DNA from: a virus
DNA: 64,000 bases
Virus record (IMG/VR): IMGVR_UViG_3300046512_000087
Coordinates: 29,404-93,403 of that record
Direction: 5' to 3' (one strand)
How positions within the stretch are numbered: position 1 is the stretch's first letter; each line of letters begins with the position of its first letter. The notes beneath the pieces were generated by a model. The model did not search any database and had not been told where the DNA came from. It saw only the letters and a program-made list of their open reading frames with translations. The position numbers and the translations under genes were made by a program. Of the stretch, positions 40,301 through 56,446 are shown piece by piece.

Positions 40301-40324
40301 TCCATTGTTTGGTTAACTGAACGT

Positions 40325-40352: not shown

Positions 40353-40357
40353 ATTAA

Positions 40358-40621: not shown

Positions 40622-40624
40622 GTT

Positions 40625-41316: not shown

Positions 41317-41507
41317 TACAGATACCCCGGTCGGGAGGCCAGGATCTTCTTGCAGGCCTCACAGGTTACAGAGGTGTGCCGGACATCTACTCGGGCGTGA
41401 GCACTTCCGTTGCCACACAAAGGCATCGGGCCCTGGAAGTCACCATTGCTTCCGGTCTTACGGCGCATCTGGTCCTGGGACAACCGGAGGTGGATTACGT
41501 CTTTCAT
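41316..41507 (-). CDS. hypothetical protein
   Basis: 63 aa, operon packing. Confidence 0.5.
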   Translation of the reverse strand: MKDVIHLRLSQDQMRRKTGSNGDFQGPMPLCGNGSAHARVDVRHTSVTCEACKKILASRPGYL

Positions 41508-41695
41508 AACTCGTACCTTTTGAATGCAGGCAATTTGTTTTTGCCCTTGGGACGCTTCTTGTACTGTCGGGCAAAGACTTGAATGACCTTCACCTCCCGT
41601 GGATACAGGGCTATGAACAGATTCAGTTCAAAGGCGTTGGGGAACTGCCAAACAGCCCGCCCTTTAGGCCCATACCCGACCAGCCAGAACCTCAT
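41504..41695 (-). CDS. hypothetical protein
   Basis: 63 aa, operon packing. Confidence 0.5.
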   Translation of the reverse strand: MRFWLVGYGPKGRAVWQFPNAFELNLFIALYPREVKVIQVFARQYKKRPKGKNKLPAFKRYEL

Positions 41696-42243
41696 TACTG
41701 GCTCTTCCCTGGGTAATCCCCGGTCCAGCCTTCAGACAACGACTGGGACCGACACTGGAAGCTGCTTACTTCACCAGAGATCGGGTAGCAACGATACGTG
41801 TCTTTATAGTCCAGGACAGCAATCACGTTCTCGCCGTGGCGCTTGTGCAAAGGCTGCAAGGTGCTGGGCTGGTTCACCCACATACGGCGGGGCACCGGGC
41901 GCTTGATCTTCTCCAGCTCGACAATCTCAGCATCTTTGTCGGCTACCCGCTGCTCCATCAGGGTCAGGCGGTCCCGCAGGTTCTGCGCACTCACCGAAAT
42001 GGACTCGCCTACCTTGGTGGCGATCTCCAGCTTTTCTTCCAAGGCGTTGATGAAGTCCTGGGCCTCGTCCATGACCTTGCTGGCTTCATACTGGTCTACC
42101 CAGTTGCCGCTGGTGTTCTCAAACTTCTGTATCGAGTTGCCGGACGGTGACAGCAGGAAGCTGAAGCGGGGAATGGCACAGAACTTGTCCCACCACTCAT
42201 AGCCTTTACGGGTTTTCACATCGCGAATCATGACTTTCTCCAC
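41695..42243 (-). CDS. hypothetical coiled-coil protein
   Basis: 182 aa. Confidence 0.6.
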   Translation of the reverse strand: MEKVMIRDVKTRKGYEWWDKFCAIPRFSFLLSPSGNSIQKFENTSGNWVDQYEASKVMDEAQDFINALEEKLEIATKVGESISVSAQNLRDRLTLMEQRVADKDAEIVELEKIKRPVPRRMWVNQPSTLQPLHKRHGENVIAVLDYKDTYRCYPISGEVSSFQCRSQSLSEGWTGDYPGKSQ

Positions 42244-42310
42244 TCAATTGGGTTTGTCCGTTGTTCTTATCTTACGGGTTTGTCCAATCGTTTGCAATTG
42301 ATTGCAGGAA

Positions 42311-42940
42311 TTACCCGGCGTACTTGGACTCGTTGCCTACGTCGTCACCAATTTCATTCGGGAAGCCATAGGTCAACGCCGCGTACTTGAACACTGGCAG
42401 CCCATACTGGGTGTACTGGTTCTTCAGGACCTCCAGACCCTTGTCGTCTTGGAAGGCGTAGAACCACATGCCTACTACTTGGGCCATCATGGCTGCACTG
42501 ATGCCGCGCTGGTCAATTGCCTTTTCAAAGCCGAAGTCCACGTCTTTACGAAACTGCTCCATCACAGCTTCACGGGTCCAAGGTGCAATCACGCGGTCTG
42601 GGGAATTGCCAGTGATCTCATACCCAGCCTCCAGTAACTGGGCATCTGTCATGAACTCAGCCAGTCTGTTGAAGTCACGGTGATCCATGCACTGTGGGCC
42701 ACGGGCAATCACTTCGGCAAGCGGACGCAGGGCTGGTCGGATGTCACGCTCGTAGAAATAGCAGAGCATGTCTTTCGGGGCTGGCCATGTGTGGCCGGGG
42801 TCCAGCTCTACCGCGATGCGCTCGTCACGACCGAACTCAGTAGCCAGAGGCATACTGGTGCCCTTGAACGGTGCGAAGCGTTCAAAGCCTTTCACGGTGC
42901 CCTGACCGTATTGCGTGTCTACGCGCATACCTACTTTCAT
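42311..42940 (-). CDS. hypothetical protein
   Basis: 209 aa with AAGGAG RBS. Confidence 0.7.
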   Translation of the reverse strand: MKVGMRVDTQYGQGTVKGFERFAPFKGTSMPLATEFGRDERIAVELDPGHTWPAPKDMLCYFYERDIRPALRPLAEVIARGPQCMDHRDFNRLAEFMTDAQLLEAGYEITGNSPDRVIAPWTREAVMEQFRKDVDFGFEKAIDQRGISAAMMAQVVGMWFYAFQDDKGLEVLKNQYTQYGLPVFKYAALTYGFPNEIGDDVGNESKYAG

Positions 42941-42950
42941 TTCTTTCTCC

Positions 42951-43205
42951 TTAATAACAGAACCAGCCCCGGCATTTGGTGCATTTCACACCGCCGCCTG
43001 GGGCGCATTGGATATCGTGTTTACAGTCCGGGTCTGCTTCCCACAGTTCTTGGTCTTCCAAGCAGACTTGTTCCTTTGGCGCCGGGACCGACTGCATGGT
43101 CTCAGTGTCGTGCCAGCCATCTTCCGCCCAATAGCTTTTGCGGGTCCCAGCAAAGCCAAAGTCTTGGGCACCGGCGAAGTCACCCTTCTTGTGTTGAACG
43201 ATCAT
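42951..43205 (-). CDS. hypothetical protein
   Basis: 84 aa; C-terminal GGGVKCTKCRGWFCY. Confidence 0.55.
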   Translation of the reverse strand: MIVQHKKGDFAGAQDFGFAGTRKSYWAEDGWHDTETMQSVPAPKEQVCLEDQELWEADPDCKHDIQCAPGGGVKCTKCRGWFCY

Positions 43206-43420
43206 TTACGACCTCTCCATTCAATTGCTATTGCTGGGCCATCGAAGCCCTTCAGGAATGCTACCGGCTCCCACAACCATGCATCGCGCAACGCGAGTTC
43301 AATGGTCTTGGAGTCGAATCGATCAGCCCGGATCTTGATCTCAGTGCCGGGCTCTGCCACTGCTGACGTGACGATCAGGTTGTAGCGGCGGGTAATCTGG
43401 TTCTGGGAGGCTGCGAACAT
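43202..43420 (-). CDS. hypothetical protein
   Basis: 72 aa. Confidence 0.5.
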   Translation of the reverse strand: MFAASQNQITRRYNLIVTSAVAEPGTEIKIRADRFDSKTIELALRDAWLWEPVAFLKGFDGPAIAIEWRGRK

Positions 43421-43424
43421 GGTC

Positions 43425-43727
43425 TTAGGCCCACAGCTTGTTGATAAGGGTCTTCATGGCCTTCACGCGGCGGACATCGTTGCCCCGCTCGTACATGGCC
43501 TTGGTAGTTTCAACGGCTTCCATGAACGCTTCCAAAGCCTTGGATTCTTCCATCTCGAACATGTACTCAGTGAACAACCGGTTCATGTCACGGGAGACTT
43601 CCACCAGAGTCTGGCTATCCAGGTCAAAGAGATCGGCCAAGCCTTTCTTGGTGACTGAGACCAACGCGGCTGCTACTGCCTTACGGGTCGGGGTCATGAT
43701 CAATGCGTTCATTCTGTACTTCTCCAC
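43425..43727 (-). CDS. hypothetical protein
   Basis: 100 aa behind a promoter. Confidence 0.55.
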   Translation of the reverse strand: MEKYRMNALIMTPTRKAVAAALVSVTKKGLADLFDLDSQTLVEVSRDMNRLFTEYMFEMEESKALEAFMEAVETTKAMYERGNDVRRVKAMKTLINKLWA

Positions 43728-43757
43728 TCAATTGGAAGGGGTTGTTCCCATAAACGT

Positions 43758-43785
43758 ATCTTGCCACACCTAGCTGGTTTGTCAA
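43758..43785 (-). promoter_or_regulatory. sigma70-like promoter with palindrome upstream
   Basis: TTGACA-16bp-CAAGAT; palindrome at 43793. Confidence 0.6.
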
Positions 43786-44206
43786 ATAAGTTTGCAATTG
43801 ATTGCACGGCAGGTTCGGAACACCGTTGCTGCGGCTCGGCAGTAGCGTCTCCGGCTTTCACACTTACATGCCAGTGCATTGACACGCCGCCCCGACTTAC
43901 CAGGTCTTTCTCCCGGCACTTGTGGCCGGACTCCTGTTACGAGGAACGGTAGCCGCTGGCATAAGGGCCGCATCTTTAAGCTATCCTCCGCGTGCAATCT
44001 TGCAATACCGTGTTGGCAGTGGCCTCTACTACGACTGCCCGGCAGCATCGGTGAGTTGTCAGTGCAACCGCATCCCGACTGTGGCTGGTCAACCACTACC
44101 ACCCTGTGCTGGACACCAGCGTCAATGTGTAGGCCAAGTCTCTAATCACCATTGCGGTGTGGATCGCGGCGCTAGCTCAATCAGCCTACGCCAAATCACG
44201 GGCAAG

Positions 44207-44227
44207 AAAAAGCCCTCCGTAGAGGGC
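44207..44227 (-). terminator. intrinsic terminator
   Basis: GCCCTC-TACG-GAGGGC then TTTTT on the minus strand. Confidence 0.8.
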
Positions 44228-44277
44228 CAATCCTATCGTTGCGTCCGTGCCAGCTTCTTAACTGCCAGTCCAAAGTA

Positions 44278-44550
44278 TCACTCGGACTCTTCCTCGTCTA
44301 CACCTGGGGCGCCCACCGGCACGATGTCGATGTAGTAGGCCTGCCCTACAACCAGCTTCTCAGCAGTCGAGGTAATGATGTTGGCTTGGAAGTTGCCATA
44401 CGGCGTGTACTTGCCGTAAACAAAGTCTTCTGTTGCCGGGTTGTTCGAGTAGACGGCACCGAAGCTGACGCGAGACATCGGGTTGTCAGGGTTGTTGTCA
44501 GAAGACTCAACGCCATGGCAGATCATCTTGCAGCGGATATGAACAGTCAT
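44278..44550 (-). CDS. hypothetical phage protein
   Basis: RCKM.C...V.FGAVY...F.KYTPYG...YYID pattern. Confidence 0.65.
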   Translation of the reverse strand: MTVHIRCKMICHGVESSDNNPDNPMSRVSFGAVYSNNPATEDFVYGKYTPYGNFQANIITSTAEKLVVGQAYYIDIVPVGAPGVDEEESE

Positions 44551-44619
44551 CTTGACTTCCTCTCAAATGGATTTAGCAGGGAGGTCTATCCGTCTTGCGC
44601 CTGCCGATACAGCTTACTC

Positions 44620-44889
44620 TTACGGGGTTACAGGATCAACCGGGGTCTGGGCTGCCAGCCAATCGTCGTAGCCAAGGCGAGTCTCGCCGGTGCGGACATC
44701 TTTACCCCACAGCTCCAGGCGGTGTTCTTCCTGTACACGGGCGCTGTATTCTTCCGGTGCTTCGATCTGTACTCGGCTCTGGGCTTGGACATCGCCAAAG
44801 CAATCACGGATGGCCGCATCGCTCTCGAAGGGCCCAACCACCGAGATGCTGCCGACGCCGTGAACCAGTACATACGTAGGTGTAGTCAT
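44620..44889 (-). CDS. hypothetical protein
   Basis: 89 aa with AGGAG RBS. Confidence 0.55.
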   Translation of the reverse strand: MTTPTYVLVHGVGSISVVGPFESDAAIRDCFGDVQAQSRVQIEAPEEYSARVQEEHRLELWGKDVRTGETRLGYDDWLAAQTPVDPVTP

Positions 44890-44904
44890 GTCTTTCTCCT
44901 GTTA

Positions 44905-45510
44905 TCAGCCGATATTGGCCTTCAGTTCAGCATATCTGAAATACAACGCCCTGTGCAGGCTAATGTAATCAGCTACCTTCAATTTGTACTTGCCTACCCG
45001 GGCCGCAGGGCGGATCTCAATCACCTGCCCATGCTCTGTGATCTCCAGGATGCCTACAGTGTCTGCTACCCAGGCCGGAATCTTCGGGATCAAAAAGGTC
45101 GGTACAGCGTAGTAGAACTGACAGACCTTCTTCCTCTCCTTGGACTTCCACTTATCCTTGTGCTGGTCGGCATGCCAGTCACTCAGACTGATCTTCACCT
45201 CTACCTCAGCCACATACCGGGCTTTGGTGATCCTGATGAAGTCGGCAATGCCGCCGCCAAACGTGATACCGGTGTAGCACTCGTTCACTGCCCAGTCGAA
45301 GTACCAGAGCAGGGCTTTCTGGATACTTTTTTCAGTGTGCTTGGTCTTTACATCTGTCGAGGACTTGGGCACGAACTTCAGGTTCTTGGGCTTGCCTTCG
45401 TTCAGTAATTTCACATCCGGTTTTGCAATTGATTGCAGGCGCTTGCACGGGATCGACTTCGGGTAGCCCTTCAGGTCAATCGGTGGGCACAGATCCCAGG
45501 TGAGGGCCAT
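44905..45510 (-). CDS. MmcB-like PD-(D/E)xK nuclease family protein
   Basis: IADF...EVEVKISLSDW.AD..K...FYYAVP. Confidence 0.65.
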   Translation of the reverse strand: MALTWDLCPPIDLKGYPKSIPCKRLQSIAKPDVKLLNEGKPKNLKFVPKSSTDVKTKHTEKSIQKALLWYFDWAVNECYTGITFGGGIADFIRITKARYVAEVEVKISLSDWHADQHKDKWKSKERKKVCQFYYAVPTFLIPKIPAWVADTVGILEITEHGQVIEIRPAARVGKYKLKVADYISLHRALYFRYAELKANIG

Positions 45511-45519
45511 GGTCTTCTC

Positions 45520-47373
45520 CTACGCGGTCTCTGCATCTTGGTATTCAGCAGTCTCTTCTTTCACTCTGCTGGCGCTCAGGTACTCTTCTGTCGGGGCTAT
45601 GCCATGCTGACCCCACACTTCCCTACGTAGACAGATGCCATACACAACGCCTGCAAGGGCGTCTGCCACGTCTTTCGAGTTGTAGGCGTTGTGGTCTACC
45701 TTTTTCTTCTTATGGTTGATCTCAAGGGCTACCAGCTCCTTCTGCAACAGGTCGTGGTGGGGGAGCATGACGCGCTGATCATACAGAGCCCGCTTCAACA
45801 TGCTGTACGGCACCATGCTGGTGTCCATGGATTCAATGCCTGCCGCAAAGCCCTTCTGCCTGAGGATCTGTACGGTGTCTCGGCTCTGGTAACTGTCGAG
45901 GCTCACCCACTGGATAGGCATGCCCAGGTCCCGCAGCTTATACAGCAGACTCCTGATCTTGTTGAACTGGATCTCCCCTGCTGGAGGCGGGCGCACTTCC
46001 AACACCATGTCGATATGGACTTCGGGGCACATCTCTTCTTCCCTCAGCACGAACCGAGGTACATGGCCAATGACTACCCCGGCGCTGTCTCCTGTCAATG
46101 CCAAGTCGATGTGGCAATACCGGGGGTACTGAAGGTTCTTGAACCTCTTCGGCAGGATGATGCAAGGCATGGTCTGGAAGTCAGTTACCTGATCCCGGAC
46201 GACGTTATGACCCTTGCCAAAGTTCGACACCACCATCTCACTGTTGGGCATGAACGGGGCGGTGGCCAGGGTGCTATGACCAGCGATGTCTCGTAGGGCC
46301 TTGGTGATGTCTTCCTTGAACTCCTGGGCGAACTCTACGGGCACATGGTCGAGCAAGTGCATGTCCTGCTCTGGCAGCTCTTCTGCTTCCTGCTCTGTCA
46401 GTACACGGGGGCGGCGCACAGCATCCCCCACGAACAATGGGAACATGTCGCCACAGAAGGCATGAGGCTTGATATCCCATACGCGCTTGTCATAGACGAA
46501 GATGCGCGGGTTTTCTTTGGCCTCTTCCATCTTAGTATCCGTGAACTCGCCGGGTATACGCTTAGACGAGACCACGCACAACAGCCCTGGGATATTACGG
46601 CCTGCCTGCATGAAGCGGGACTTACGGCGCCGGGCAATCGAGTTATACAACTCAACAGCTTGGTTGTAAGTGCCGCCATCTGCCGACTGCTTCGAGTTCT
46701 CAACTACCGCCATGAAGTTGATCTCGTCGATGATGCCTCCAATGATGTTCTGGCCAATCGAAGCCGTCTCGCTACCGGACACTGGCTCTACTTCGATGTT
46801 GTTGTCGAAGCGCAGGATCGAGGTCAGGCTACGGTCGAACGGGAATACGGTCTTGAAGTAAGGGCTCGCGGCGATCAGGTTGTAGAACCGGTTGAAGTCA
46901 ACGGTCTTGGCCGTGCTCTTACGCAGGGACTGGAAGATCATCTTCAGTTCTGAACTGGAGTCCAGGCCAAACGACTGCTGGGGGTTCGCCATGCAGGACA
47001 GCACATACAGTTGATACGCCTGGGAGTACAGGGCAATCGTAGTCTTGGCTGACCCGATGCCTCCTGTGAGTACAGCCTCATCATAGCGCCCGCTGTTCAT
47101 CTCTTCGAACTCACGGAGTACAGGCGGGTAGACCTCACTGGCCTTGTTCAGATAGAACTGGCTACACAGAAAGGTCTTAGCATCTACTGGCTCTCGTACC
47201 CAGGAGATCGGGGCGAGGAATTCCTTGTCGTTAGCCACCAACATCTTGATCAGATTCACCAGCCATAGATGGCGTCGGTCTGGATCGGTGATGGTGTTGG
47301 CCTGTGCAATCAATTGCAAAGTTCGCTGAGGCCCCAGCAGTCCTTCTAACACTCGCTCGGGGGTTGGCCTCAT
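45520..47373 (-). CDS. terL: terminase large subunit
   Basis: LTGGIGSAKT (Walker A), GGIIDEINF (Walker B), HIDLALTGD and KVDH..SKDVADA nuclease motifs. Confidence 0.9.
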   Translation of the reverse strand: MRPTPERVLEGLLGPQRTLQLIAQANTITDPDRRHLWLVNLIKMLVANDKEFLAPISWVREPVDAKTFLCSQFYLNKASEVYPPVLREFEEMNSGRYDEAVLTGGIGSAKTTIALYSQAYQLYVLSCMANPQQSFGLDSSSELKMIFQSLRKSTAKTVDFNRFYNLIAASPYFKTVFPFDRSLTSILRFDNNIEVEPVSGSETASIGQNIIGGIIDEINFMAVVENSKQSADGGTYNQAVELYNSIARRRKSRFMQAGRNIPGLLCVVSSKRIPGEFTDTKMEEAKENPRIFVYDKRVWDIKPHAFCGDMFPLFVGDAVRRPRVLTEQEAEELPEQDMHLLDHVPVEFAQEFKEDITKALRDIAGHSTLATAPFMPNSEMVVSNFGKGHNVVRDQVTDFQTMPCIILPKRFKNLQYPRYCHIDLALTGDSAGVVIGHVPRFVLREEEMCPEVHIDMVLEVRPPPAGEIQFNKIRSLLYKLRDLGMPIQWVSLDSYQSRDTVQILRQKGFAAGIESMDTSMVPYSMLKRALYDQRVMLPHHDLLQKELVALEINHKKKKVDHNAYNSKDVADALAGVVYGICLRREVWGQHGIAPTEEYLSASRVKEETAEYQDAETA

Positions 47374-48053
47374 CCTCGCATTTCCTCAGTAAACTCGCCT
47401 TCAGCCACGTTTTCATCCGGGCCCAGCACGCCTTCTCCACGCAGGAACTCCAGAGCCAGTAACGTAGCCTGTCTCTCCTGGTCGAAGCCCTGTACCTTGC
47501 TGGCCTGCTGTTGCTCAGCCGCTGACAACTTGTGCTCTACTTCCATAGGCACTTTCTTCAGCATGCCGACGTCCATGTGCAGGCTGGCCAGATCCTTCAA
47601 CATGTAGTGCAGGTTCAAAATGTTCTTGGTCTGGGCGTCCAGGAGAGTAGGGGAGTTCTTTTCTAGCTCGGCCATCTTGGCTACCCGGTGCATCTGGGTG
47701 TGTATCAGCTTCTCCATCTCCTGGATAGGCAGGAACCGGATACCCAGCTCTTCTACCTTCTCGGCCACGCGGGTCAGCGTGTCGTTATCAGCAAACTTGG
47801 CTACCAGGGCTACCTGCTTCGGCTCAATCAGCTCTTCCTTGTAGCGGTACAGCATGCGGCGCAACGTGTTCGGGTCCTTGTCGGTCAGTAGCTCCCACTT
47901 CTGTTGGATCATCCGCACCAATTCCGTGGGCGAGCCGTTACCCAGGATGTGGGTGTCGATGGCAGCGCGCTTATCTAACGGGAGTGAGAGGATGTCCTGG
48001 AACGCAATGGACTTCTTGACCTTCTTATGCTGCACAGGGGCTACTTTTGCCAT
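47370..48053 (-). CDS. probable terminase small subunit
   Basis: Helical 227-aa protein with ATGA overlap immediately upstream of terL. Confidence 0.55.
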   Translation of the reverse strand: MAKVAPVQHKKVKKSIAFQDILSLPLDKRAAIDTHILGNGSPTELVRMIQQKWELLTDKDPNTLRRMLYRYKEELIEPKQVALVAKFADNDTLTRVAEKVEELGIRFLPIQEMEKLIHTQMHRVAKMAELEKNSPTLLDAQTKNILNLHYMLKDLASLHMDVGMLKKVPMEVEHKLSAAEQQQASKVQGFDQERQATLLALEFLRGEGVLGPDENVAEGEFTEEMRG

Positions 48054-48056
48054 GGT

Positions 48057-48854
48057 TTAGCCCTCTACCTTCTCTACCTCGGGGAAGTCCTTCAGAGACT
48101 CCCACAGTTCTGGCATGCCACCTCCTGCAATTGATTGCAAAACCAGACGTACCATCGAGTCCATGCCACGGTTCATTTCCTGGCAGCGGGTAGCCACCTG
48201 AGTGAAGGCTTTCAGGTCATGGGTCTTCAGTGGCAGCCACACGGATTCCTGCTTACCGAAGTCCAGGATCATGAAGCCGAAGGGGAGGGTGTCACCGTAC
48301 TTGGTGAACATTTTGTTTAGCAACACGGACAGACCGTCGATGGTCTTGATCTCTTCCGCTGCCTTCTTGAACTCGGCCTGGGCCTGCTTAGGGAGAGAGT
48401 CGGACATCTGCCCTATCAGCTTCTTGAACAGATCTTCGTCCGCGAAACCAAAAGACTCGGCCAGGAGGTCATCAGAGTATTTCTGGTTCAGGCTCTGGTA
48501 CAGCTTCAGGAACTTCGGAGTATCCAGCTTACCTCTGATCATGTTCATCCGAGTGATCTGGAAGCGCTCCAGGTCTTCGTCGAACTCAGGGTCGTCAATG
48601 ATGGTGCAGGGCACTTCATCAAAGCCCAGGAGCTTGCCTGCTTCATAGCGGTGATAGCCACCAATGACTCGGTACTTGCCCCCATCAATAGGTCTTACGA
48701 ACACTGGATCAATGAAGCCCACGGCGTCGATGTTTGCACACAGGAGATTGAACTCCTTGGCTGACATTTTGTTAGGGTTAATTTCCTGCGGAACGAGCAA
48801 ATCTACCGCAATATTGGCCCGAATTAGCGCTTTTGTCTTAGTTACCGCGTCCAT
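48057..48854 (-). CDS. ParB/Srx N-terminal domain protein with possible HTH
   Basis: NPNKM, GFIDPVFVR, YRVIGGYHRY; YSDDLLAESFGF HTH-like segment; start at ATG 48854 behind AAGGAG. Confidence 0.85.
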   Translation of the reverse strand: MDAVTKTKALIRANIAVDLLVPQEINPNKMSAKEFNLLCANIDAVGFIDPVFVRPIDGGKYRVIGGYHRYEAGKLLGFDEVPCTIIDDPEFDEDLERFQITRMNMIRGKLDTPKFLKLYQSLNQKYSDDLLAESFGFADEDLFKKLIGQMSDSLPKQAQAEFKKAAEEIKTIDGLSVLLNKMFTKYGDTLPFGFMILDFGKQESVWLPLKTHDLKAFTQVATRCQEMNRGMDSMVRLVLQSIAGGGMPELWESLKDFPEVEKVEG

Positions 48855-48864
48855 GTCATACTCC

Positions 48865-49959
48865 TTATGGGCTTGGCGTCTGGAAGCAATTTGGATACTG
48901 AGGACCGGAATCATATCGAGGTAGGCCTAGTATTGATAGCCTGTCGAAGGGTTTCTGTTGTTCGTAGCCGATCTCCATGTTCTCCAACTCTGTTATCAGA
49001 GCGGTATGATCTTGAACTTTTCTCAGCGTCTCAATACTTTCAGAAATCTTATCCAGTGACAGCACTGACTCTCTCACTCTCAGTACCTCTGTGTTCTCAG
49101 TCTTCTCTGTCTCTCCTGTACATAGTTCTTCGTGTAGCTTCTCTCCTGGTCGTAATCCTATTTCTTTTATCTTCAACGGGATTTGCATCTGTTCTGCTAC
49201 CCACGACGCTACCTCGGCAATTTTTTTGGGCTCGCCCATGGTTAGCAGGAAGCGCTGGCCTTGCAATTGATTGCAGGAAGTCACGAGGCTAACTGCCTCT
49301 GGGATGCTCATGAAGAACCTTGTCACAGACATGTCGGTAATCGTCACAGGCATACCCAGGCTCAGTTGCTCATAGAACAGAGGGATCACAGAGCCTGATG
49401 AGCCTATGACGTTACCGAACCTTACTACCTTGCTGCCTTCCACCATACTCAATGCCATATGCTCTACCAGGGCCTTTGTCGCCCCCATTACATTGGCTGG
49501 CTTCACTGCTTTGTCTGTGCTGATTACTACCAGGGATATAGGGGCCCGCAAATTTTTGAGCATGGTGAACAACGAGTGGGCTTCCAGCACATTGTTGTCT
49601 ACAGCCGAGAGCGAGTTCTCTTCCACCATTGGCACATGCTTGTAAGCGCCTGCGTGGAAGCACAGTGTTGGTTCATAGTCTTCAAGCACCTTCTGGAGTC
49701 TTGGGCTTCCATAGCTACCCAGCACTGGCTTTGTTACCACGCCCATCGACACCAGCTTCCGATTGATCTCGTACAGTGAGAACTCATTCAGCTCTACCAG
49801 CACAAGCCTCGACACGCCTTGCAGTGCCAGGAAGGTACACAGGGCGGAACCGATGCTGCCCCCGGCGCCGGTAACCATTATGGTCTGCCCCTGGTACTGA
49901 GTGCCTGTCTCCCATTTGTCCTGGCCCAAGCGAGCCACTAGAGCTTCCAGTGTAATCAT
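48865..49959 (-). CDS. NDP-sugar 4,6-dehydratase (CapD/PglF/WbpM family, soluble domain)
   Basis: VTGAGGSIGS, HAGAYKHVP, ISTDKAV.P.NVMGATK, VRFGNVIGSSGSVIPLF, GLRPGEKLHEEL. Confidence 0.92.
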   Translation of the reverse strand: MITLEALVARLGQDKWETGTQYQGQTIMVTGAGGSIGSALCTFLALQGVSRLVLVELNEFSLYEINRKLVSMGVVTKPVLGSYGSPRLQKVLEDYEPTLCFHAGAYKHVPMVEENSLSAVDNNVLEAHSLFTMLKNLRAPISLVVISTDKAVKPANVMGATKALVEHMALSMVEGSKVVRFGNVIGSSGSVIPLFYEQLSLGMPVTITDMSVTRFFMSIPEAVSLVTSCNQLQGQRFLLTMGEPKKIAEVASWVAEQMQIPLKIKEIGLRPGEKLHEELCTGETEKTENTEVLRVRESVLSLDKISESIETLRKVQDHTALITELENMEIGYEQQKPFDRLSILGLPRYDSGPQYPNCFQTPSP

Positions 49960-49974
49960 GGTAATCCTTGGTCG

Positions 49975-49998
49975 AAAAAAGAGGGCTTTCGCCCCCTC
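49975..49998 (-). terminator. intrinsic terminator between glycosyltransferase and dehydratase
   Basis: GAGGGGGCGAAAGCCCTC hairpin followed by T6 on the minus strand. Confidence 0.7.
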
Positions 49999-50018
49999 TG
50001 ATGGTGATTGTGCTGAGC

Positions 50019-51479
50019 CTACTCTTTTTTCAAATGGCCTGCACGTACCCCGGCGTCCTGGTATCCGAAGTGGAGCTTCAGTGCTACTCGGAGATATTGC
50101 CAGTTGGTCATCCAGATAAGCCCAGCTTCCTCGGCAAATTTCTGGGTGCTCTGTACCTTCAAGGCCGTCAGGTCTTCATGGAGCCCGGCAGACATTGCAT
50201 CGGCCATCACGAACTCAGTGCCTGCGTAGTTCCTGAGTGCGGCTACAGTCCCATTGGTTTTACCGCTCTGGCCCAACTTGACTTTACGGGCTTCAGCTTC
50301 CAGGCACTCGGCCAGCAGGTGGTTGTACATCCCGTCTTCATTCTCACGGCGGGTGTACTCAGGCACAAACCAGGAGCTGTACCACTCGGCAAATTTTGCG
50401 TACATGCCTTCATAGTCGTTCTTGAACAAATTGATCATGCCGAAGCCTTCAGTCTCGTTGGCTACGTAGAACGGGTAGCTTTCTCCCAGCATGCCTACCG
50501 ACCATGGAGCCTTGATAGCGATCAGAGGCACGCCAAACATCACGGGCTCCAACTTGGAGAGGGACAGCTCCACATCGACCGAGAAGGCCAGGGCCACATC
50601 CATTTCTTCCCGGCTGATCCGCCAGAATTCTTCCCGGGCTGGGTGCAGGACTTCAATGGCTTCTGCGTCCAGGAACTTGTCGCCTTCAGTCACGGTGCAG
50701 ACGAAGGGGCGCACTGTCTCCGAGTGCAGGATGAACTGGTTCTTCAGCATGTCGTTCATTACATGGATGCGGGTGCCGAATCTTTCCAGGCGACCCACAA
50801 ACGCCACGCCCAATTTTCGGTCACCCTTGTAGCGGTGCTCGGTCTTCAATCCGTAGTCATGCTTGCTCAGGCGCAGCTGGCAGACTTCACGCAGTTTTTC
50901 ATTCAGGGTCTTCCTGGCCGAAAAGCTCACATGCTCTGCCGCTACTTGAGCCACCCAGGTTTTTTCATGGTAGGCCGGGATAAGAGTGATGTCGGCGTCC
51001 AGGTACGAGGCCAGGAGCATACGGTCTTGGGATTCCGGCGCCGACTGGCCGACAGTGGGCTTCTTGCTCAACACCATCATGTCTTCAATGGCAATGATCT
51101 TGCGCATCCAACCGAGCATAGGCTGGCGAGGGGACGTGGAGATAGCGCGCATCTGGGCGATCTGTGGCACACGGACTGTCACCAACACATCCCAGTCCCA
51201 GGTCTTCACGCTGTAGAAGCTGATCAACTCGGCCATGTCGTCGCTGAGGCGCAGGTATTCACGCATGCGATCTTTGTGCTGGCGGATGGGCAGGTACAGG
51301 ATTCGGTCACTGACTGGGTAGAAGGCTTTCTCTTCGTCATCCAGGCGGTCTGGGATAGGCCAGTAGATGAAACAGGTAGGGTCGGCCTCCAGCAACAACC
51401 CAGCCAGGGTCACAAACTGGATAGTCGTGGAGCACTTGGCTGGGGACGAGGTGAGTATGCAGTCAAACAGGACTTTCAT
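50019..51479 (-). CDS. GT-B fold glycosyltransferase (divergent GT4-like)
   Basis: AFVGRL and DVALAFS..ELSLSKLEPVMFGVPLIA donor-binding motifs. Confidence 0.75.
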   Translation of the reverse strand: MKVLFDCILTSSPAKCSTTIQFVTLAGLLLEADPTCFIYWPIPDRLDDEEKAFYPVSDRILYLPIRQHKDRMREYLRLSDDMAELISFYSVKTWDWDVLVTVRVPQIAQMRAISTSPRQPMLGWMRKIIAIEDMMVLSKKPTVGQSAPESQDRMLLASYLDADITLIPAYHEKTWVAQVAAEHVSFSARKTLNEKLREVCQLRLSKHDYGLKTEHRYKGDRKLGVAFVGRLERFGTRIHVMNDMLKNQFILHSETVRPFVCTVTEGDKFLDAEAIEVLHPAREEFWRISREEMDVALAFSVDVELSLSKLEPVMFGVPLIAIKAPWSVGMLGESYPFYVANETEGFGMINLFKNDYEGMYAKFAEWYSSWFVPEYTRRENEDGMYNHLLAECLEAEARKVKLGQSGKTNGTVAALRNYAGTEFVMADAMSAGLHEDLTALKVQSTQKFAEEAGLIWMTNWQYLRVALKLHFGYQDAGVRAGHLKKE

Positions 51480-52153
51480 GGGAGTTCCTTGTCAATGATT
51501 CGAATGGGTACATAGGCCTCGGCAATTCCCTTGCCCATCTGTAGGCCTCGGGTTTTTGCCAGGGTCACCAGACCGTCGTAGCCCACGATGCTCTTTTCCC
51601 GTCCAGACACCTGAGAGGCATGGCATGCGTAGGCTGCCAGCTTGGCTTCCAGGTCTTCCGAGACGAGCCCGACGTACCGCGTGCAATTGATTGCAAAACC
51701 CAATTGCGGGCCGTGGTACTGAGTCGGCTGCTCATAGGCGTAGACACTGGCACCCTCAGCCTTGGTAGGGCGTAGGGCTGCCGTACAGGCCTCCCAGACG
51801 ACGTTGTGATCTTTTGCATGGCTGGGTAGCGGGATGTAGATCTCGTCGTACCCTTCGCGTAATACGGCGTCAAGGGCCGTCACCAGTTTGGAGATAGGCT
51901 GCTGGTCAAAGTTGGAGGCCGATGCAAAGTTCAGCCAGTGGATGTTCGACACCTTGAGGACTTCAGCCGCTTTCTTCTGCTCGTCCATCCGGGTAGTCCA
52001 GCTCACCTTACTACCTGAAGCCATGGCCAGGGTTCCCGAGCCACAAACTACCGCAATGTCAACGGTGTGACCGGCCTTGGACATCTTGTACATGAGCCCG
52101 CCACAGCCAATTTCTACATCGTCTGGGTGTGGGCTGATAAAGAGTGCTTTCAT
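51476..52153 (-). CDS. PIG-L/LmbE family de-N-acetylase
   Basis: SPHPDDVEIGCGG, HAKDH, K..AYACHASQ, AEAY; start at ATG 52153. Confidence 0.9.
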   Translation of the reverse strand: MKALFISPHPDDVEIGCGGLMYKMSKAGHTVDIAVVCGSGTLAMASGSKVSWTTRMDEQKKAAEVLKVSNIHWLNFASASNFDQQPISKLVTALDAVLREGYDEIYIPLPSHAKDHNVVWEACTAALRPTKAEGASVYAYEQPTQYHGPQLGFAINCTRYVGLVSEDLEAKLAAYACHASQVSGREKSIVGYDGLVTLAKTRGLQMGKGIAEAYVPIRIIDKELP

Positions 52154-52662
52154 GGGTAATTCCTCGCCCCCTGGAGATCCTTCTCTGAAAAAATCAATGG
52201 CAATCCTACGCACATCGACTGGTACAACTCTGTCAGATCAGGACACACGCCATCCAGGCAGATGCAGTATTCATCACTGGCCTTGTACTCGGTGGTTGAC
52301 CCATACAGGATCACGGTATCGGTCAGAGAAATGATCCCGTTCGCCCACAGGGGAGGGGTGATAGAGGCTTCCATGCCAGGGGTCAGCTTTCTGATTTCGA
52401 AGTTGCACTGCTTGTTCTGGAACCCGGCCACCGGCACCAGGATGTGCAGGGCTGTGCCTTCAAGGACAATCGTAGCCTTGGTCTGAGGCACGACCGAGAA
52501 GTGCAGACCTCGCACAGACCCGGCCACGCTGGTCAACAGGTTCACCTGTTTCAGATCTGGCACGCCCATCTTGGATACGCGCATCAGCTCCGAGAACCCG
52601 CCACGGTGGTCTGTGAAGGTCTTTCGGGCTTTAGGCAACAATGGAATAACCCTCAAGCTCAC
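52150..52662 (-). CDS. dTDP-4-dehydrorhamnose 3,5-epimerase family (RmlC-like cupin)
   Basis: FTDHRGGFSE, QVN, VRGLHF, IFSEKD. Confidence 0.85.
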   Translation of the reverse strand: MSLRVIPLLPKARKTFTDHRGGFSELMRVSKMGVPDLKQVNLLTSVAGSVRGLHFSVVPQTKATIVLEGTALHILVPVAGFQNKQCNFEIRKLTPGMEASITPPLWANGIISLTDTVILYGSTTEYKASDEYCICLDGVCPDLTELYQSMCVGLPLIFSEKDLQGARNYP

Positions 52663-53710
52663 CTTCCAGGGCCACCCACAGATCTCGCACGTCTTCTTCG
52701 GTCAGGTCGTGGTGGTAGGGCAGGGCGATGGTAGCGCGGGCAACTTCCTCGCACACAGGCAGGGGCTGGCGCACGAACTCTTTCAGGTGTTCCAGGTGAT
52801 GCAAGGCCACAAAGTACGGCTTCAGCGGCACTGAGCTGTAGGTAACCAGGGTCTTCTTGTCTACTGTCTTGGGCACTTCAATGACGTAGACAAACGGGAC
52901 ATAGGAATCCCCTGGCAGCACACGCTGTACCCGGTACTTTTCAAAGCGGCGGTCGAGAAGGTCGTAGGCGTTGAACTTGCCCACACAGATCTCGTTGAAC
53001 CGCTCCATCTGAGCACAGCCCACGGCGGCATGCAGGTCGCTCATGCGGTAGTTGTAGCCATAGCTCTGTTCATACATCGAAGCCCCGGCCAGGACGCCAT
53101 GACGAGACAGGGCTCTCACTTTTTCAGCCAGGGTCTTGTTGCGGGTCACCAGCATGCCACCATCGCCGGTCGTGATTTGCTTGTTGGGGAAAAACGAGAA
53201 GACAGCAGCGTCTGCGTATTGCCCGACCAGTTCACCCTTGTGGCGTGCGCCAAGGGCCTCGCAAGCATCTTGCACGATGTAGATGGAGCCCGGCAGGATA
53301 TCTCGGATACCTGAGACGTCACACGGGACACCAAAGATGTCCACCGGGATAACGGCCTTGGTGCGATAGGTCAGCACCTGCTGAACAGTCTGCGGGGTGA
53401 TGTTGTAGGTGTGGCGATCAATGTCTGCAAAAACCGGAGTCGCGCCAACGGCCAACACCACATTTACGCTGGCCACCATGGTAAACGGCGAGACAATAAC
53501 CTCGTCACCCGGGCCAATGCCCAGGGCTTCGAGAGCCAGCTTCAGGGCTGAAGTGCCACTGTTCATAGCCACGGCGTAGTCATAGCCCCAGGCCTTGAAT
53601 GCGGCTTCGAAGCGGTCCACGAACGGGCCCGAGGCCAGCTGGCCGGAGTTCATGACTTCCTGCACATAACGGCTTTCAAGAGCAGAGAGATTGGGCTTGG
53701 AAAACTGCAT
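52631..53710 (-). CDS. DegT/DnrJ/EryC1 PLP sugar aminotransferase
   Basis: NSGTSAL, GPGDEVI, QDACEALG, FSFFPNKQITTGDGG, GYNYRM. Confidence 0.93.
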   Translation of the reverse strand: MQFSKPNLSALESRYVQEVMNSGQLASGPFVDRFEAAFKAWGYDYAVAMNSGTSALKLALEALGIGPGDEVIVSPFTMVASVNVVLAVGATPVFADIDRHTYNITPQTVQQVLTYRTKAVIPVDIFGVPCDVSGIRDILPGSIYIVQDACEALGARHKGELVGQYADAAVFSFFPNKQITTGDGGMLVTRNKTLAEKVRALSRHGVLAGASMYEQSYGYNYRMSDLHAAVGCAQMERFNEICVGKFNAYDLLDRRFEKYRVQRVLPGDSYVPFVYVIEVPKTVDKKTLVTYSSVPLKPYFVALHHLEHLKEFVRQPLPVCEEVARATIALPYHHDLTEEDVRDLWVALEGELEGYSIVA

Positions 53711-53712
53711 GG

Positions 53713-54336
53713 TTACACCTCTGGCTTCACGCCGACAAAGATCATGCGGCGGCGCAGAAAAGGGATGGGGAATTTGCCGAAGTAGTAAGCCTGTTCACAA
53801 CGGAAGCCGTTCTCGTACATCAGCTGCTTCAGCTCACCCATTGTGGGTTCACGGACCATGGTCGCATCGGGCTTGTAGCCGTTGAACAGGTTCAGGGGTT
53901 TGCGCAGGCGAGCGGGCAGAGGGTTGTGTGTGACTACAACGATCTTGGCCCCTGGAGTCATCCGGTCCCAAACCCCGCCAAGCAGGGTGTCGAGGTCTTC
54001 CACTTGGTTGATGGTGTGGATGAACGCTACGAAGCCAATCCCGTCTGGGACCAGACTCGGAGTCCTGTAGAAGCTGCAATCCGTATGTCTTTGGGCGGCT
54101 ATGGTCAGGGCGGCAGGATTGACGTCTACCCCGTAGTAGTTAACGCCCTCATCCAATCCGGTCTTGCAGAGCCCGATGAATCGGCCAGTGTTACAGCCCA
54201 GGTCCATGACCTCGGTCACCGGGTAGGGGATATGAGATAGCACTTCGCGTGCTTCTGCCTTCCACCAGGGGGTGGTGGCAAAAACATCAGCCTTTCGTGC
54301 ATATTTGTGGCCCCACTTGGGGTTCAAGGTTTCCAT
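53713..54336 (-). CDS. class I SAM-dependent methyltransferase
   Basis: MDLGCNTG, YGVDVN, MTPGAK. Confidence 0.85.
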   Translation of the reverse strand: METLNPKWGHKYARKADVFATTPWWKAEAREVLSHIPYPVTEVMDLGCNTGRFIGLCKTGLDEGVNYYGVDVNPAALTIAAQRHTDCSFYRTPSLVPDGIGFVAFIHTINQVEDLDTLLGGVWDRMTPGAKIVVVTHNPLPARLRKPLNLFNGYKPDATMVREPTMGELKQLMYENGFRCEQAYYFGKFPIPFLRRRMIFVGVKPEV

Positions 54337-54992
54337 TCAGCGGCTCCAAGGACTTGAGAAAGGGGGTGCTCATGCTCTGCAATCAATTGCAAAATAGAAT
54401 CCGTGCTCAATCCTTGAGTAAGGTGCTGGTAGTGGACGGGGTACTGGAAGTCAGAATCCATGTAGGCCTTCGCGCCAATACCGGCCAGATACCGGAAGTC
54501 TGTTCCTACGTTGCGCTCTAACCGGGTCTGTAGACGCTGGGTCTTGCTTGGGCCCGCTGTGGGCTCTTCGTCAAACACCAGGGGGGTAGTGATGCCCAGG
54601 AGGGTAGCCAGCTGGTACATCAGGACTTTGTTCAGATAGACCAGGGGGACCGGCTCCTGAGTCAGGACATGCAGAAGGTTAACTACTCCCTCCAGGCGGT
54701 GGTGGAACTTGAAGCGCTTCACCATCAGGCTCTTTTCGATCCTTTGGCAAATGCCACCATCGCTGGTAATGATGATGTCTGCCAGTCTCGGCCCGGTCTG
54801 CTGGAAGGGCAGGGTAACCCAAGCATTCTGGATCTTGACTCGGTGTTCAAAATCCCTGCGGCTGAAGTCCGTGGCATTGGAGATCACGCAAACATCCGCC
54901 GACGCCACCTTGTTCCAAAATCCAATCCAGGGCAGGAAGACAGACTGGTGGCTGGCCACTTTTTTAGGAGCAGGCTTTAATCCGTGCATCAA
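54324..54992 (-). CDS. WbqC-like protein (putative amino-sugar acyl/glycyl transferase)
   Basis: HQSVFLPWIGFWNKV..AD, YLAGIGAKAYM, LS.DSI. Confidence 0.8.
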   Translation of the reverse strand: MMHGLKPAPKKVASHQSVFLPWIGFWNKVASADVCVISNATDFSRRDFEHRVKIQNAWVTLPFQQTGPRLADIIITSDGGICQRIEKSLMVKRFKFHHRLEGVVNLLHVLTQEPVPLVYLNKVLMYQLATLLGITTPLVFDEEPTAGPSKTQRLQTRLERNVGTDFRYLAGIGAKAYMDSDFQYPVHYQHLTQGLSTDSILQLIAEHEHPLSQVLGAAEWKP

Positions 54993-56061: not shown

Positions 56062-56110
56062 TTGCTACTCCTTAGAATGAAACAGGGGCCCTAATCAGCC
56101 CCTGTGTACT

Positions 56111-56139
56111 ATCTTGCTATTATTTGTTGGGTTTGTCAA
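56111..56139 (-). promoter_or_regulatory. sigma70-like promoter for the modification cluster
   Basis: TTGACA-17bp-CAAGAT. Confidence 0.55.
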
Positions 56140-56375: not shown

Positions 56376-56446
56376 ACACTCCGTTGGTTATTGATACCTC
56401 TCCATGTCGGACTTCTTACTCGACAACTTTTGCAATTGATTGCAAG

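What the first reader, a model, noticed from the sequence alone, without database searches (positions are those of the whole stretch)
48057..48854. ParB-like protein as candidate reader of the palindrome, linking it to modification and packaging
Seen: a ParB N-terminal domain with GGYHR, then an HTH-like segment (YSDDLLAESFGFADEDLFKKL). There is no ParA in the window, and the gene sits between the sugar genes and terS and itself contains a palindrome (48126). Established: ParB-CTP clamps load at ~16-bp palindromic parS sites and slide. The extended repeat TTGCAATTGATTGCAA has that length and symmetry. Inference: dispersed parS-like sites could load a clamp that delivers the glycosyltransferase or terminase to phage DNA only, giving self/non-self discrimination.
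Basis: inference. Interest (0 to 1): 0.8.

Follow-up and report, generated by a model that had tools for sequence, protein, structure and literature searches.

The report
Orphan phage ParB, not the palindrome reader
The gene is a real ParB-fold protein that travels with a phage DNA-sugar-modification cassette, but comparison of 16 phage genomes indicates that the genome-wide 14-bp palindromes are more likely read by a different, universally conserved protein that carries a ParB-type DNA-binding domain.

Summary
Window 48057-48854 (-) encodes a 265-aa protein with a ParB N-terminal (ParB/Srx) domain and the motif GGYHR. It lies between amino-sugar/glycosyltransferase genes and terS/terL, no ParA is found in the 93-kb phage genome, and one palindrome copy lies in its 3' end.

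Its link to a modification cassette is conserved: GT, ParB and terminase lie together in 9 relatives. It also matches published ParB-dependent phage DNA-modifying enzymes.

- Two complete phages, G002 and G003, carry the identical TGCAATTGATTGCA lattice without this gene or this GT.
- Three more lattice phages (RHph_I4, HJ05, SIO-2) lack a full-length copy.
- Arthrobacter phage Kitkat has the ParB-GT pair but no lattice.
- The protein is acidic throughout and lacks the canonical CTPase residues.

A better candidate reader turned up at window 60003-60797. It is a core 264-aa protein whose residues 38-165 model as a ParB/Noc/KorB DNA-binding domain. It is present in all 15 lattice genomes and absent from Kitkat. 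It correctly predicted lattices in three untested phages, and a lattice site precedes its ORF in 11 of 14 genomes.

The first-stage scan had already noted the lattice on this genome.

The parts
48057..48854 (-). Orphan ParB_N (ParB/Srx-fold) protein, 265 aa, PHROG 26387: the gene of the finding
   Evidence: Family alignment A1 has invariant N26-P-N28, G65-G66, R69, Q99, R102 and N104.
48126..48139 (.). Lattice site TGCAATTGATTGCA inside the 3' end of the ParB gene (codons L-Q-S-I-A)
   Evidence: The same codon position carries a site in Summit, G001 and RHph_TM16. Q[S/L]IA occurs there in about 27 of 50 family members.
47370..48053 (-). 227-aa protein, small-terminase candidate by position only
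   Evidence: No Pfam or PHROG hit. Weak homologues lie in the same position in KarBoss, RHph_TM16, RcZahn, Summit and G001.
45520..47373 (-). Large terminase subunit
   Evidence: PHROG 17415. 33-52% identical to the (mostly annotated) TerL of the relatives.
50019..51479 (-). 486-aa glycosyltransferase homologue, separated from ParB here by the dehydratase gene
   Evidence: 25-32% identical to the annotated GTs of KarBoss, RcZahn, Summit, RHph_TM16 and G001. The Summit annotation cites an HHpred GT-B hit. Family alignment A2.
48865..49959 (-). Polysacc_synt_2 (CapD/PglF-type) nucleotide-sugar 4,6-dehydratase
   Evidence: Pfam E=1.4e-78.
51476..54992 (-). Rest of the amino-sugar cassette: PIG-L deacetylase, RmlC-like cupin, DegT aminotransferase, SAM methyltransferase, WbqC-like protein
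60003..60797 (-). 264-aa core protein (PHROG 17202) with a ParB/Spo0J/Noc/KorB-type DNA-binding domain: the better candidate reader of the lattice
   Evidence: Model pLDDT 85.8. Residues 38-165 match 4umk_C (Z 9.7), 6t1f_D (9.0), 6y93_B (8.7) and 1r71_D (6.8); the next unrelated row has Z 3.5. Present in 15 of 15 lattice genomes and absent from Kitkat.
60876..60889 (.). Lattice site 6 nt upstream of the TTGGAC -35 box of the promoter in front of the 264-aa gene
   Evidence: A site at the opening of this ORF occurs in 11 of 14 genomes, P about 1e-9.
868..61874 (.). Genome-wide lattice of TGCA-N6-TGCA sites: 38 in the window, 52 in the genome, 47 of them exactly TGCAATTGATTGCA
   Evidence: Spacing is more even than random: CV 0.56, none of 5000 simulations as even.

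Best explanation
The gene encodes an orphan ParB/Srx-fold protein with three parts: a ParB_N nucleotide-binding domain, an acidic helical middle and a small C-terminal domain. It belongs to a phage family, PHROG 26387.

It is a component of a swappable DNA-modification island that sits just upstream of the terminase genes. In this phage the island holds an amino-sugar pathway and a GT-B glycosyltransferase.

The most likely mechanism is inferred, not shown. The protein binds a nucleotide through its retained GxxR motif and acts as the partner or activator that lets the neighbouring glycosyltransferase work on double-stranded phage DNA. This would parallel the ParB homologues that activate phage thymine dioxygenases.

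It is probably not the sequence-specific reader of the TGCA-N6-TGCA lattice. That role fits better the core 264-aa protein at window 60003-60797, which has a ParB/Noc/KorB-type helix-turn-helix DNA-binding domain but no ParB_N domain.
For: Shown:
- ParB_N fold with GxxR kept.
- GT-ParB adjacency is conserved across five proteobacterial host genera and in an actinobacterial phage.
- In the close relatives G002 and G014 (TerL 45-47% identical, as close as Summit) the island holds other ParB_N proteins instead. G002, like the distant G003, also has a ParB_N-Methyltransf_23 fusion. So the ParB_N gene changes together with the modifying enzyme while the lattice stays identical.

Literature:
- Phage ParB homologues activate cognate T-dioxygenases, lack an obvious DNA-binding domain, and co-occur with GTs and terminases (PMC13229309).
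- Phage DNA GTs have ParB-like neighbours (bioRxiv 10.1101/2023.12.21.572611).
- The ParB fold binds CTP, ATP or GTP and is often fused to methyltransferases in phages (PMC12704722).
- DNA of relative DLP3 resisted all 15 restriction enzymes tried (PMC7326821).

Against a reader role for this gene:
- Lattice and gene dissociate in both directions.
- All domains are acidic, and acidic residues are conserved in the HTH-like helix.
- No lattice site lies at the opening of this gene in 0 of 12 genomes.

For the alternative reader:
- ParB/Noc DNA-binding fold.
- Co-occurrence with the lattice in 15 of 15 genomes, and absence from lattice-free Kitkat.
- A passed prediction test on three phages not examined before.
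- A lattice site precedes its ORF in 11 of 14 genomes, P about 1e-9.
Against: - No direct evidence that the GT acts on DNA rather than on a virion protein or a host glycan.
- No hydroxymethyl-pyrimidine route was found. TET/JBP is absent from all 9 genomes searched.
- The helical middle of this protein does align to KorB/Noc DNA-binding regions in long structural alignments, so some DNA binding cannot be excluded.
- A lattice site is positionally conserved inside the gene's 3' end.
- Every lattice genome tested except SIO-2 has at least one ParB_N protein of some kind.
- The 264-aa protein is a core gene of this phage clade, so its co-occurrence with the lattice is confounded by common descent.
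- Lattice sites also precede the prohead protease gene in 10 of 15 genomes, so the site upstream of the 264-aa gene is not unique.
Confidence: 0.5

Rival explanations
1. Split-ParB model. The 264-aa DNA-binding-domain protein reads the lattice. The orphan ParB_N protein of the finding, or its non-orthologous substitutes in other phages, docks on it or is loaded by it. This brings the glycosyltransferase (or a methyltransferase) to phage DNA only.
For: - The two halves of a canonical ParB, the NTP-binding N-domain and the HTH DNA-binding domain, are found in two separate proteins of the same genome.
- In G003 the homologue of the 264-aa protein is the gene immediately upstream of a ParB_N gene and two genes upstream of a ParB_N-methyltransferase fusion.
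- Nearly all lattice genomes have some ParB_N protein.
- The lattice is evenly spaced, as expected of loading sites meant to cover a genome.
Against: - In this genome the two genes are 11 kb apart.
- No ParB_N protein was detected in SIO-2 by two searches. Sensitivity is limited, since the same Pfam search missed KarBoss's known copy.
- ParB_N partners of unrelated architecture (families A1 and A4) would all have to dock on the same reader.
- Kitkat keeps ParB and GT with neither lattice nor the 264-aa protein.
- No interaction test could be run.
Confidence: 0.18
2. This ParB-like protein itself recognises the palindrome, closes as an NTP-dependent clamp and spreads, delivering GT or terminase.
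For: - ParB_N fold.
- A 14-16-bp dyad with two TGCA arms one helical turn apart, like parS, NBS or KorB operators.
- A1-type ParB co-occurs with the lattice in 9 genomes.
- A lattice site is conserved inside the gene, as parS is inside some parB genes. The parS comparison is my own knowledge.
Against: - The identical lattice occurs in complete genomes G002 and G003 that lack this protein's middle and C-terminal domains. hhalign of A1 against A4 aligns 78 N-domain columns only.
- Kitkat has the protein without a lattice.
- The CTPase residues Q/R of box I, E/R of box II and N of box III are replaced.
- The HTH-like helix is acidic and the middle domain has no Arg.
Confidence: 0.12
3. Packaging accessory. 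A ParB-like nuclease-domain protein works with TerS/TerL in headful packaging, for example in pac cleavage or concatemer processing.
For: - It lies immediately upstream of terS/terL in 9 genomes, with overlapping or abutting reading frames.
- RcZahn is circularly permuted and RcTiptonus uses P1-type headful packaging (PMC8601537).
- Lattice sites recur in the ParB 3' end and about 750-850 bp downstream, at the terS/terL junction.
Against: - G002 and G014 have related TerL but no such gene next to it.
- G001 keeps the gene, but the GT moved downstream of terL, so the cassette is mobile relative to the terminase.
- No nuclease catalytic motif can be named for this family.
- Kitkat's copy is not adjacent to a terminase gene in the record.
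Confidence: 0.12
4. Partition protein of a plasmid prophage, as proposed for DLP3 and DLP5, with the dispersed palindromes as centromere sites.
For: The DLP3 authors report that DLP5 was isolated as a phagemid, and they attribute this to its two ParB-domain proteins (PMC7326821).
Against: - No ParA in the genome, and the N-terminus has no LG(K/R)GL-type ParA-binding motif (sequence).
- 47 sites spread at about 2-kb spacing, many inside genes, are unlike a centromere.
- The gene sits in a modification and packaging operon.
Confidence: 0.05

Closest known systems
ParB homologues that activate phage thymine dioxygenases (ParB176 with 5mYOX176; O'Toole et al., PNAS 2026, PMC13229309)
   Same: An orphan phage ParB with an N-terminal nucleotide-binding domain, a short helical segment and a C-terminal domain, and no obvious DNA-binding domain. 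It is encoded beside DNA-hypermodification genes, GTs and terminases, and has no ParA.
   Different: No TET/JBP dioxygenase in this phage or 8 relatives. The constant neighbour here is a GT-B glycosyltransferase with an amino-sugar pathway. The box I arginine that those ParBs keep is Asn here. Sequence relatedness to ParB176 was not tested, because no usable reference sequence was available.
KorB of plasmid RK2 (ParB-family CTP clamp and global repressor; PMC11790492)
   Same: It is the top structural match over the longest stretch (8qa9_B, Z 14.3, 158 residues). From my own knowledge, RK2 carries about a dozen dispersed 13-bp palindromic operators, some just upstream of -35 boxes. Here 10 of 38 window sites lie 4-13 nt upstream of a -35 box.
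   Different: KorB has a GERR box, a basic HTH and a ParA partner (IncC). This protein has GGYHR, an acidic helical region and no ParA. The KorB-like DNA-binding fold is clearer in the separate 264-aa protein (1r71_D Z 6.8, 4umk_C Z 9.7).
Noc and its dispersed 14-bp palindromic binding sites in Bacillus
   Same: A ParB paralogue that reads many dispersed 14-bp palindromes rather than a centromere (own knowledge; PDB titles). The VH2_2019 homologue is even annotated 'noc'.
   Different: Noc is a single chain with a CTPase domain, an HTH and a membrane-targeting helix. Here the N-domain protein and the DNA-binding-domain protein are separate genes, and the N-domain protein is dispensable for the lattice.
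Phage ParB_N-methyltransferase fusions (N6_N4_Mtase and Methyltransf_23; PMC12704722)
   Same: A ParB_N module coupled to a DNA-modifying enzyme. In lattice phages G002 and G003 this fusion type occupies the island upstream of the terminase, where the present phage has ParB plus GT.
   Different: Here the ParB_N protein is a separate polypeptide and the enzyme is a glycosyltransferase. The phage's own Methyltransf_23 protein is unrelated to the fused one.

Membership tests
Pfam ParB_N (PF02195) / ParB-Srx fold | Sequence match above the gathering score, and the fold | tested here: met
   37.8 bits against a cut-off of 26.3. Z 13-14 at rmsd 1.4-1.7 A to ParB, Noc and KorB N-domains.
PHROG 26387 (phage 'ParB-like partition nuclease') | Full-length profile match | tested here: met
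   E=1.7e-83, residues 4-246 on profile positions 2-241 of 252. 309 database proteins with E<=1e-10.
Canonical CTP-dependent ParB clamp (ParABS, Noc, KorB) | Box I Q-P-R, box II G-E-R-R and box III E-N residues that bind and hydrolyse CTP | tested here: not met
   Aligned residues are N26-P27-N28, G66-Y67-H68-R69 (family consensus GGHHR) and E96-R/K97. Only the GxxR arginine is kept.
Canonical CTP-dependent ParB clamp (ParABS, Noc, KorB) | HTH DNA-binding domain after the N-domain | tested here: inconclusive
   No Pfam HTH_ParB hit. Long structural alignments reach residue 192 (KorB) or 225 (Noc) at rmsd 6.7-6.9 A. pLDDT is 58-70 there. The region is net acidic with conserved D129, E133, D139 and E140.
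Canonical CTP-dependent ParB clamp (ParABS, Noc, KorB) | ParA partner and an N-terminal ParA-binding motif | tested here: not met
   PF13614 finds nothing in the genome, while 14 of 14 control genomes score. The N-terminus MDAVTKTKALIR has no LG(K/R)GL motif.
Canonical CTP-dependent ParB clamp (ParABS, Noc, KorB) | Specific binding to a palindromic site, then NTP-dependent spreading | not testable with these tools
   Needs EMSA or BLI, a CTPase assay or ChIP-seq. Comparative evidence argues against it.
ParB activators of phage DNA-modifying enzymes (5mYOX-associated ParB) | Encoded next to a TET/JBP dioxygenase | tested here: not met
   PF12851 is absent at E<=1 from this genome and 8 relatives.
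ParB activators of phage DNA-modifying enzymes (5mYOX-associated ParB) | [quoted passage not shown] | tested here: met
   Architecture. Neighbourhood. Criteria as described in PMC13229309.
ParB/Noc/KorB DNA-binding domain (tested for the 264-aa protein at 60003-60797) | Fold of the HTH DNA-binding domain | tested here: met
   Matches: 4umk_C Z 9.7 (111 aa), 6t1f_D Z 9.0, 6y93_B Z 8.7 (112 of 116 aa), 1r71_D Z 6.8. The only other family among the top 20 rows is the Raf1 alpha-domain, and the next row has Z 3.5. Caveat: Z under about 13 can be a common arrangement for helical proteins.
ParB/Noc/KorB DNA-binding domain (tested for the 264-aa protein at 60003-60797) | Sequence-profile match to a curated HTH_ParB family | tested here: not met
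   No Pfam family for the protein or consistently for its 59 aligned relatives. No PDB sequence hit.

The most novel reading that the evidence does not exclude
A split ParB system. A core protein with only the ParB DNA-binding domain reads an evenly spaced, genome-wide lattice of TGCA-N6-TGCA sites. Interchangeable orphan ParB_N nucleotide-binding proteins dock on it. One is GT-associated, as here; others are methyltransferase-fused, as in G002 and G003. Chemically different DNA hypermodifications, and perhaps packaging, would then be confined to DNA that carries the phage's own lattice. That would be a self-marking device.
Probability: 0.15. Interest if true: 0.85.

Novelty: new variant of a known kind. 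Interest (0 to 1): 0.5.

Why it matters
Orphan ParB-fold proteins are common in phages, and their roles are only now being worked out. This one ties the fold to a glycosyltransferase and amino-sugar cassette that lacks any TET/JBP enzyme. That extends the 'ParB as activator of DNA-modifying enzymes' idea to a new enzyme class, if the GT acts on DNA.

The check also redirects experiments on a striking and, as far as my searches show, undescribed genome-wide palindrome lattice. The lattice is shared by at least 15 phages of Stenotrophomonas, Rhizobium, Rhodobacter, Agrobacterium, Vibrio and Aeromonas. Experiments should move away from this gene and toward a specific, testable reader candidate, the 264-aa protein. 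Culturable phages such as Summit, DLP3, RcZahn and SIO-2 are available for the tests.

Tried and rejected
- TET/JBP (PF12851) was not found in this genome or 8 relatives.
- Literature search for the motif strings gave only two chance hits. Searches on the relatives' papers found no mention of the repeats.
- Host-factor reader rejected: RcZahn and RcTiptonus share host strain YW1 but have different motif centres.
- De novo dyad and k-mer search in Kitkat found no lattice of any sequence.
- MerR-like 141-aa protein (L046:972-1397) considered as reader. It was not detected in G003, RcZahn, RHph_TM16, RcTiptonus or JP1 by tblastn.
- 130-aa conserved protein (L046:575-967) considered. It has no DNA-binding features.
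- The 133-aa and 260-aa core proteins are resolvase-like and SSB-like.
- The phage's own Methyltransf_23 protein is not homologous to the methyltransferase part of the G002 and G003 ParB fusions.
- Apparent C-terminal similarity between the A1 and A4 ParB families in a MAFFT alignment was not confirmed by hhalign.
- Covariation between the motif half-site and residues of the 264-aa protein (GWTK versus GWSK) is suggestive but not clean.
- The genome search PF02195 search missed KarBoss's known copy, so its negative result for SIO-2 is weak.
- A crude ORF caller over-called antisense ORFs. Coding versus intergenic counts are rough, and the Summit annotation was used instead.
Full report
**What is there.** The window is the right-hand 64 kb of a 93,403-bp single-contig phage genome, estimated 95% complete. 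The finding's gene is the ORF 48057..48914 on the minus strand. AAGGAG lies 7 nt upstream of it, and it follows the stop of the upstream gene.

Pfam finds a ParB N-terminal domain, E=2e-9. PHROG 26387, 'ParB-like partition nuclease', matches over the full length, E=1.7e-83. The closest solved proteins by sequence are Noc and Spo0J, and GGYHR aligns with the GERR box.

An AlphaFold model built on 50 relatives has mean pLDDT 78.6. The N-domain scores above 90, the helices at 112-189 score 58-70, and a beta-hairpin plus three-helix C-terminal domain scores about 80. Residues 10-107 superpose on the CTP-binding domains of ParB, Noc and KorB at Z 13-14, rmsd 1.4-1.7 A.

The neighbours on the same strand run as follows:
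- WbqC-like protein
- SAM methyltransferase
- DegT aminotransferase
- RmlC-like cupin
- PIG-L deacetylase
- a 486-aa glycosyltransferase homologue
- a CapD/PglF-type dehydratase
- this gene
- a 227-aa terS candidate with no family match
- terL

No ParA is found in the whole genome.

**The palindrome.** TGCAATTGATTGCA occurs 47 times exactly in 93 kb. The general form TGCA-N6-TGCA occurs 52 times against 2.2 expected, and only spacer 6 is enriched. Sites are spaced more evenly than chance: CV 0.56, and none of 5000 simulations was as even. Most sites lie inside genes. In the window, 10 of 38 sit 4-13 nt upstream of the -35 box of a promoter family, TTGGACaaacc...TAAGAT. One copy lies in the 3' end of the ParB gene.

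**Conserved module.** The order GT-(small ORFs)-ParB-hypothetical-terL recurs in these phages:
- Stenotrophomonas phages Summit, DLP_3 and DLP_5 (ParB 54% identical)
- Rhizobium phages RHph_TM16 and Y1_11
- Rhodobacter phages RcZahn and RcTiptonus
- Vibrio phages KarBoss and VH2_2019
- Agrobacterium phage JP1

GT-ParB also recurs in Arthrobacter phage Kitkat.

Eight of these nine fetched genomes carry their own TGCA-N6-TGCA lattice, with 18-37 sites against 1-2 expected. The centres track phage lineage:
- ATTGAT in Summit
- ATCGAT in RcTiptonus
- AACGTT in JP1
- ATTAAC in the Vibrio phages
- ACATAT in RHph_TM16

**The refutation test.** A scan of IMG/VR for the exact 14-mer gave further genomes, three of them 100% complete by CheckV, all with the identical lattice:
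- G002: 98 kb, GC 62%, 50 exact copies
- G003: 95 kb, 22 copies
- G014: 95 kb, GC 47%, 30 copies
- G001: 98 kb, 39 copies

G001 has the gene at 45% identity. G002 and G014 are as close to this phage as Summit is (TerL 45-47% identical, dozens of shared genes). Even so, they lack both the full-length protein and the GT.

G002 and G003 instead encode a different ParB_N protein of 240 or 259 aa, with a 'GHTR' motif and a Cys-rich middle. They also encode a ParB_N-Methyltransf_23 fusion. A profile-profile comparison of the two ParB families aligns only 78 N-domain columns. G014 has two short ParB_N proteins. One of them resembles this family only up to residue 147.

The converse also holds. Kitkat has the ParB at 33% identity and a GT, but no TGCA-N6-TGCA site and no other dyad lattice.

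The lattice and this gene therefore dissociate in both directions. Two unrelated C-terminal architectures are unlikely to read the same 14 bp.

**The protein itself argues the same way.** The residues that canonical ParB uses to bind and hydrolyse CTP are replaced. Box I QPR becomes N26-P-N28, GERR becomes G-Y-H-R (family consensus GGHHR), and box III EN becomes E-R/K. Only the GxxR arginine is kept. A recent survey shows that the fold can bind CTP, ATP or GTP through that arginine (PMC12704722). Nucleotide binding therefore remains plausible, but a parS-loaded CTP clamp cannot be assumed.

All three domains are net acidic. The HTH-like helix carries conserved Asp and Glu, and the middle domain has no arginine.

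**What the gene most likely does.** The region upstream of the terminase behaves as a swappable DNA-modification island that always contains a ParB_N protein. Here the island holds an amino-sugar pathway plus GT. In G002 and G003 it holds a methyltransferase fused to ParB_N.

The published precedent is direct. Phage ParB homologues without an obvious DNA-binding domain activate their cognate thymine dioxygenases on double-stranded DNA. They co-occur with GTs (31% of neighbourhoods), ParBs (27%) and terminases (19%) (PMC13229309). Phage DNA glycosyltransferases have ParB-like neighbours. DNA of the relative DLP3 resisted all 15 restriction enzymes tried.

I therefore rank 'nucleotide-binding partner or activator of the glycosyltransferase on DNA' first, at 0.5. 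This is an inference. No TET/JBP or other hydroxymethylase was found, the GT's substrate is unknown, and the complex predictor was closed.

**A better reader candidate.** Genes shared by every lattice genome are few:
- replication and recombination proteins
- capsid, protease, portal and TerL
- two proteins of unknown function

One of the unknowns, window 60003-60797 (264 aa, PHROG 17202), drew weak ParB-HTH leads from the protein atlas. I collected relatives (1852 representative clusters at E<1e-3), aligned 59 and folded the protein, giving pLDDT 85.8.

Residues 38-165 match the DNA-binding domains solved on their DNA sites:
- Spo0J-parS, 4umk_C: Z 9.7 over 111 aa
- ParB-parS, 6t1f_D: Z 9.0
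- Noc-NBS, 6y93_B: Z 8.7 over 112 of 116 aa
- KorB-operator, 1r71_D: Z 6.8

The only other family among the top 20 rows is the Raf1 alpha-domain, and the next row scores Z 3.5. Relatives often add a Lys/Ala/Pro-rich N-terminal tail.

The family is present in all 12 lattice genomes then in hand, including JP1 and G003, and is absent from Kitkat.

As a prediction test I took three phages that have this protein but had not been examined. All three have lattices:
- RHph_I4: 46 sites, TGCAAC-NG-GTTGCA
- HJ05: 18 sites
- SIO-2: 9 sites plus variants

Expected counts were 0.3-1.8. None of the three has a full-length copy of the finding's ParB.

A lattice site lies at the opening of this protein's ORF in 11 of 14 genomes (P about 1e-9), against 0 of 12 for the finding's ParB gene.

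Caveats:
- The protein is a clade core gene, so co-occurrence is confounded by descent.
- The protease gene also has an upstream site in 10 of 15 genomes.
- Z values below 13 for helical domains are not proof.
- No curated sequence family matches.

**Remaining possibility.** The two halves of a canonical ParB are thus encoded separately. In G003 the DNA-binding-domain gene sits directly upstream of a ParB_N gene. I give it about 0.15-0.18.

**Verdict.** The gene is a genuine orphan ParB-fold protein and a new variant of the recently recognised class of ParB-like partners of phage DNA-modifying enzymes. It is probably not the palindrome reader. The lattice itself had already been noted by the first stage on this genome. 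What this report adds is that the lattice extends to at least 15 phages, that it is separable from this gene, and that a specific alternative reader can now be tested.

Noticed in passing
window 60003-60797 (-): A 264-aa core protein (PHROG 17202, no Pfam family) folds with a ParB/Spo0J/Noc/KorB-type DNA-binding domain. It co-occurs with the TGCA-N6-TGCA lattice in 15 of 15 genomes, so it is a candidate lattice reader.
   Followed up: yes
window 20305, 23543, 24446, 25767, 34924, 38397, 40367, 42293, 43793, 60876: Ten lattice sites lie 4-13 nt upstream of a shared sigma70-like promoter (TTGGAC/TTGACA aaacc, 16-17 nt spacer, TAAGAT/TACGAT). In 9 of the 10, the CA-centred orientation is on the transcribed-gene strand.
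   Followed up: partly
window 48126 and other intragenic sites; Summit, G001, G002, G014: Many lattice sites sit at the same codon positions in orthologous genes of phages that are only about 50% identical in protein. At the ParB site, the residue alternates Ser (TCA) and Leu (TTG). That is exactly the flip of the central CA/TG dinucleotide, a sign of selection on the DNA rather than the protein.
   Followed up: partly
15 lattice genomes (window 4714-5319 is the protease gene here): A lattice site lies at the opening of the prohead protease ORF in 10 of 15 genomes. The same holds for the AAA ATPase in 6 of 15 and the portal in 5 of 15, but in 0-2 of 15 for most other core genes.
   Followed up: no
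L166:3596-5880 (G002) and L173:11114-13951 (G003): These lattice phages replace the GT-ParB pair with a 240 or 259-aa ParB_N protein that has a conserved Cys-rich segment (ELDCLCG...ADCL...VCG), plus a ParB_N-Methyltransf_23 fusion. G003 has a rhomboid protease gene between the two.
   Followed up: partly
L181:9243-12182 (G001): The TerL match in G001 is split. The main part lies at 10425-12122, and a further 24-residue piece (79% identical) lies about 1.1 kb downstream at 9243-9314. This suggests an insertion, such as an intein, an intron or a homing element, in the terminase gene.
   Followed up: no
window 5509-7119 (-): The portal-adjacent 536-aa protein matches Phage_Mu_F and minor-head-protein families. 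Its Summit homologue is annotated as a second 'ParB-like nuclease domain protein' (IPR014956). PF02195 finds only one ParB_N in this genome.
   Followed up: partly
Stenotrophomonas phage DLP3 (PMC7326821): The published paper reports that DLP3 DNA resists all 15 restriction enzymes tried. It attributes the ParB genes to phagemid partition and the GT to LPS conversion. Neither the lattice nor a DNA-glycosylation role is discussed.
   Followed up: partly
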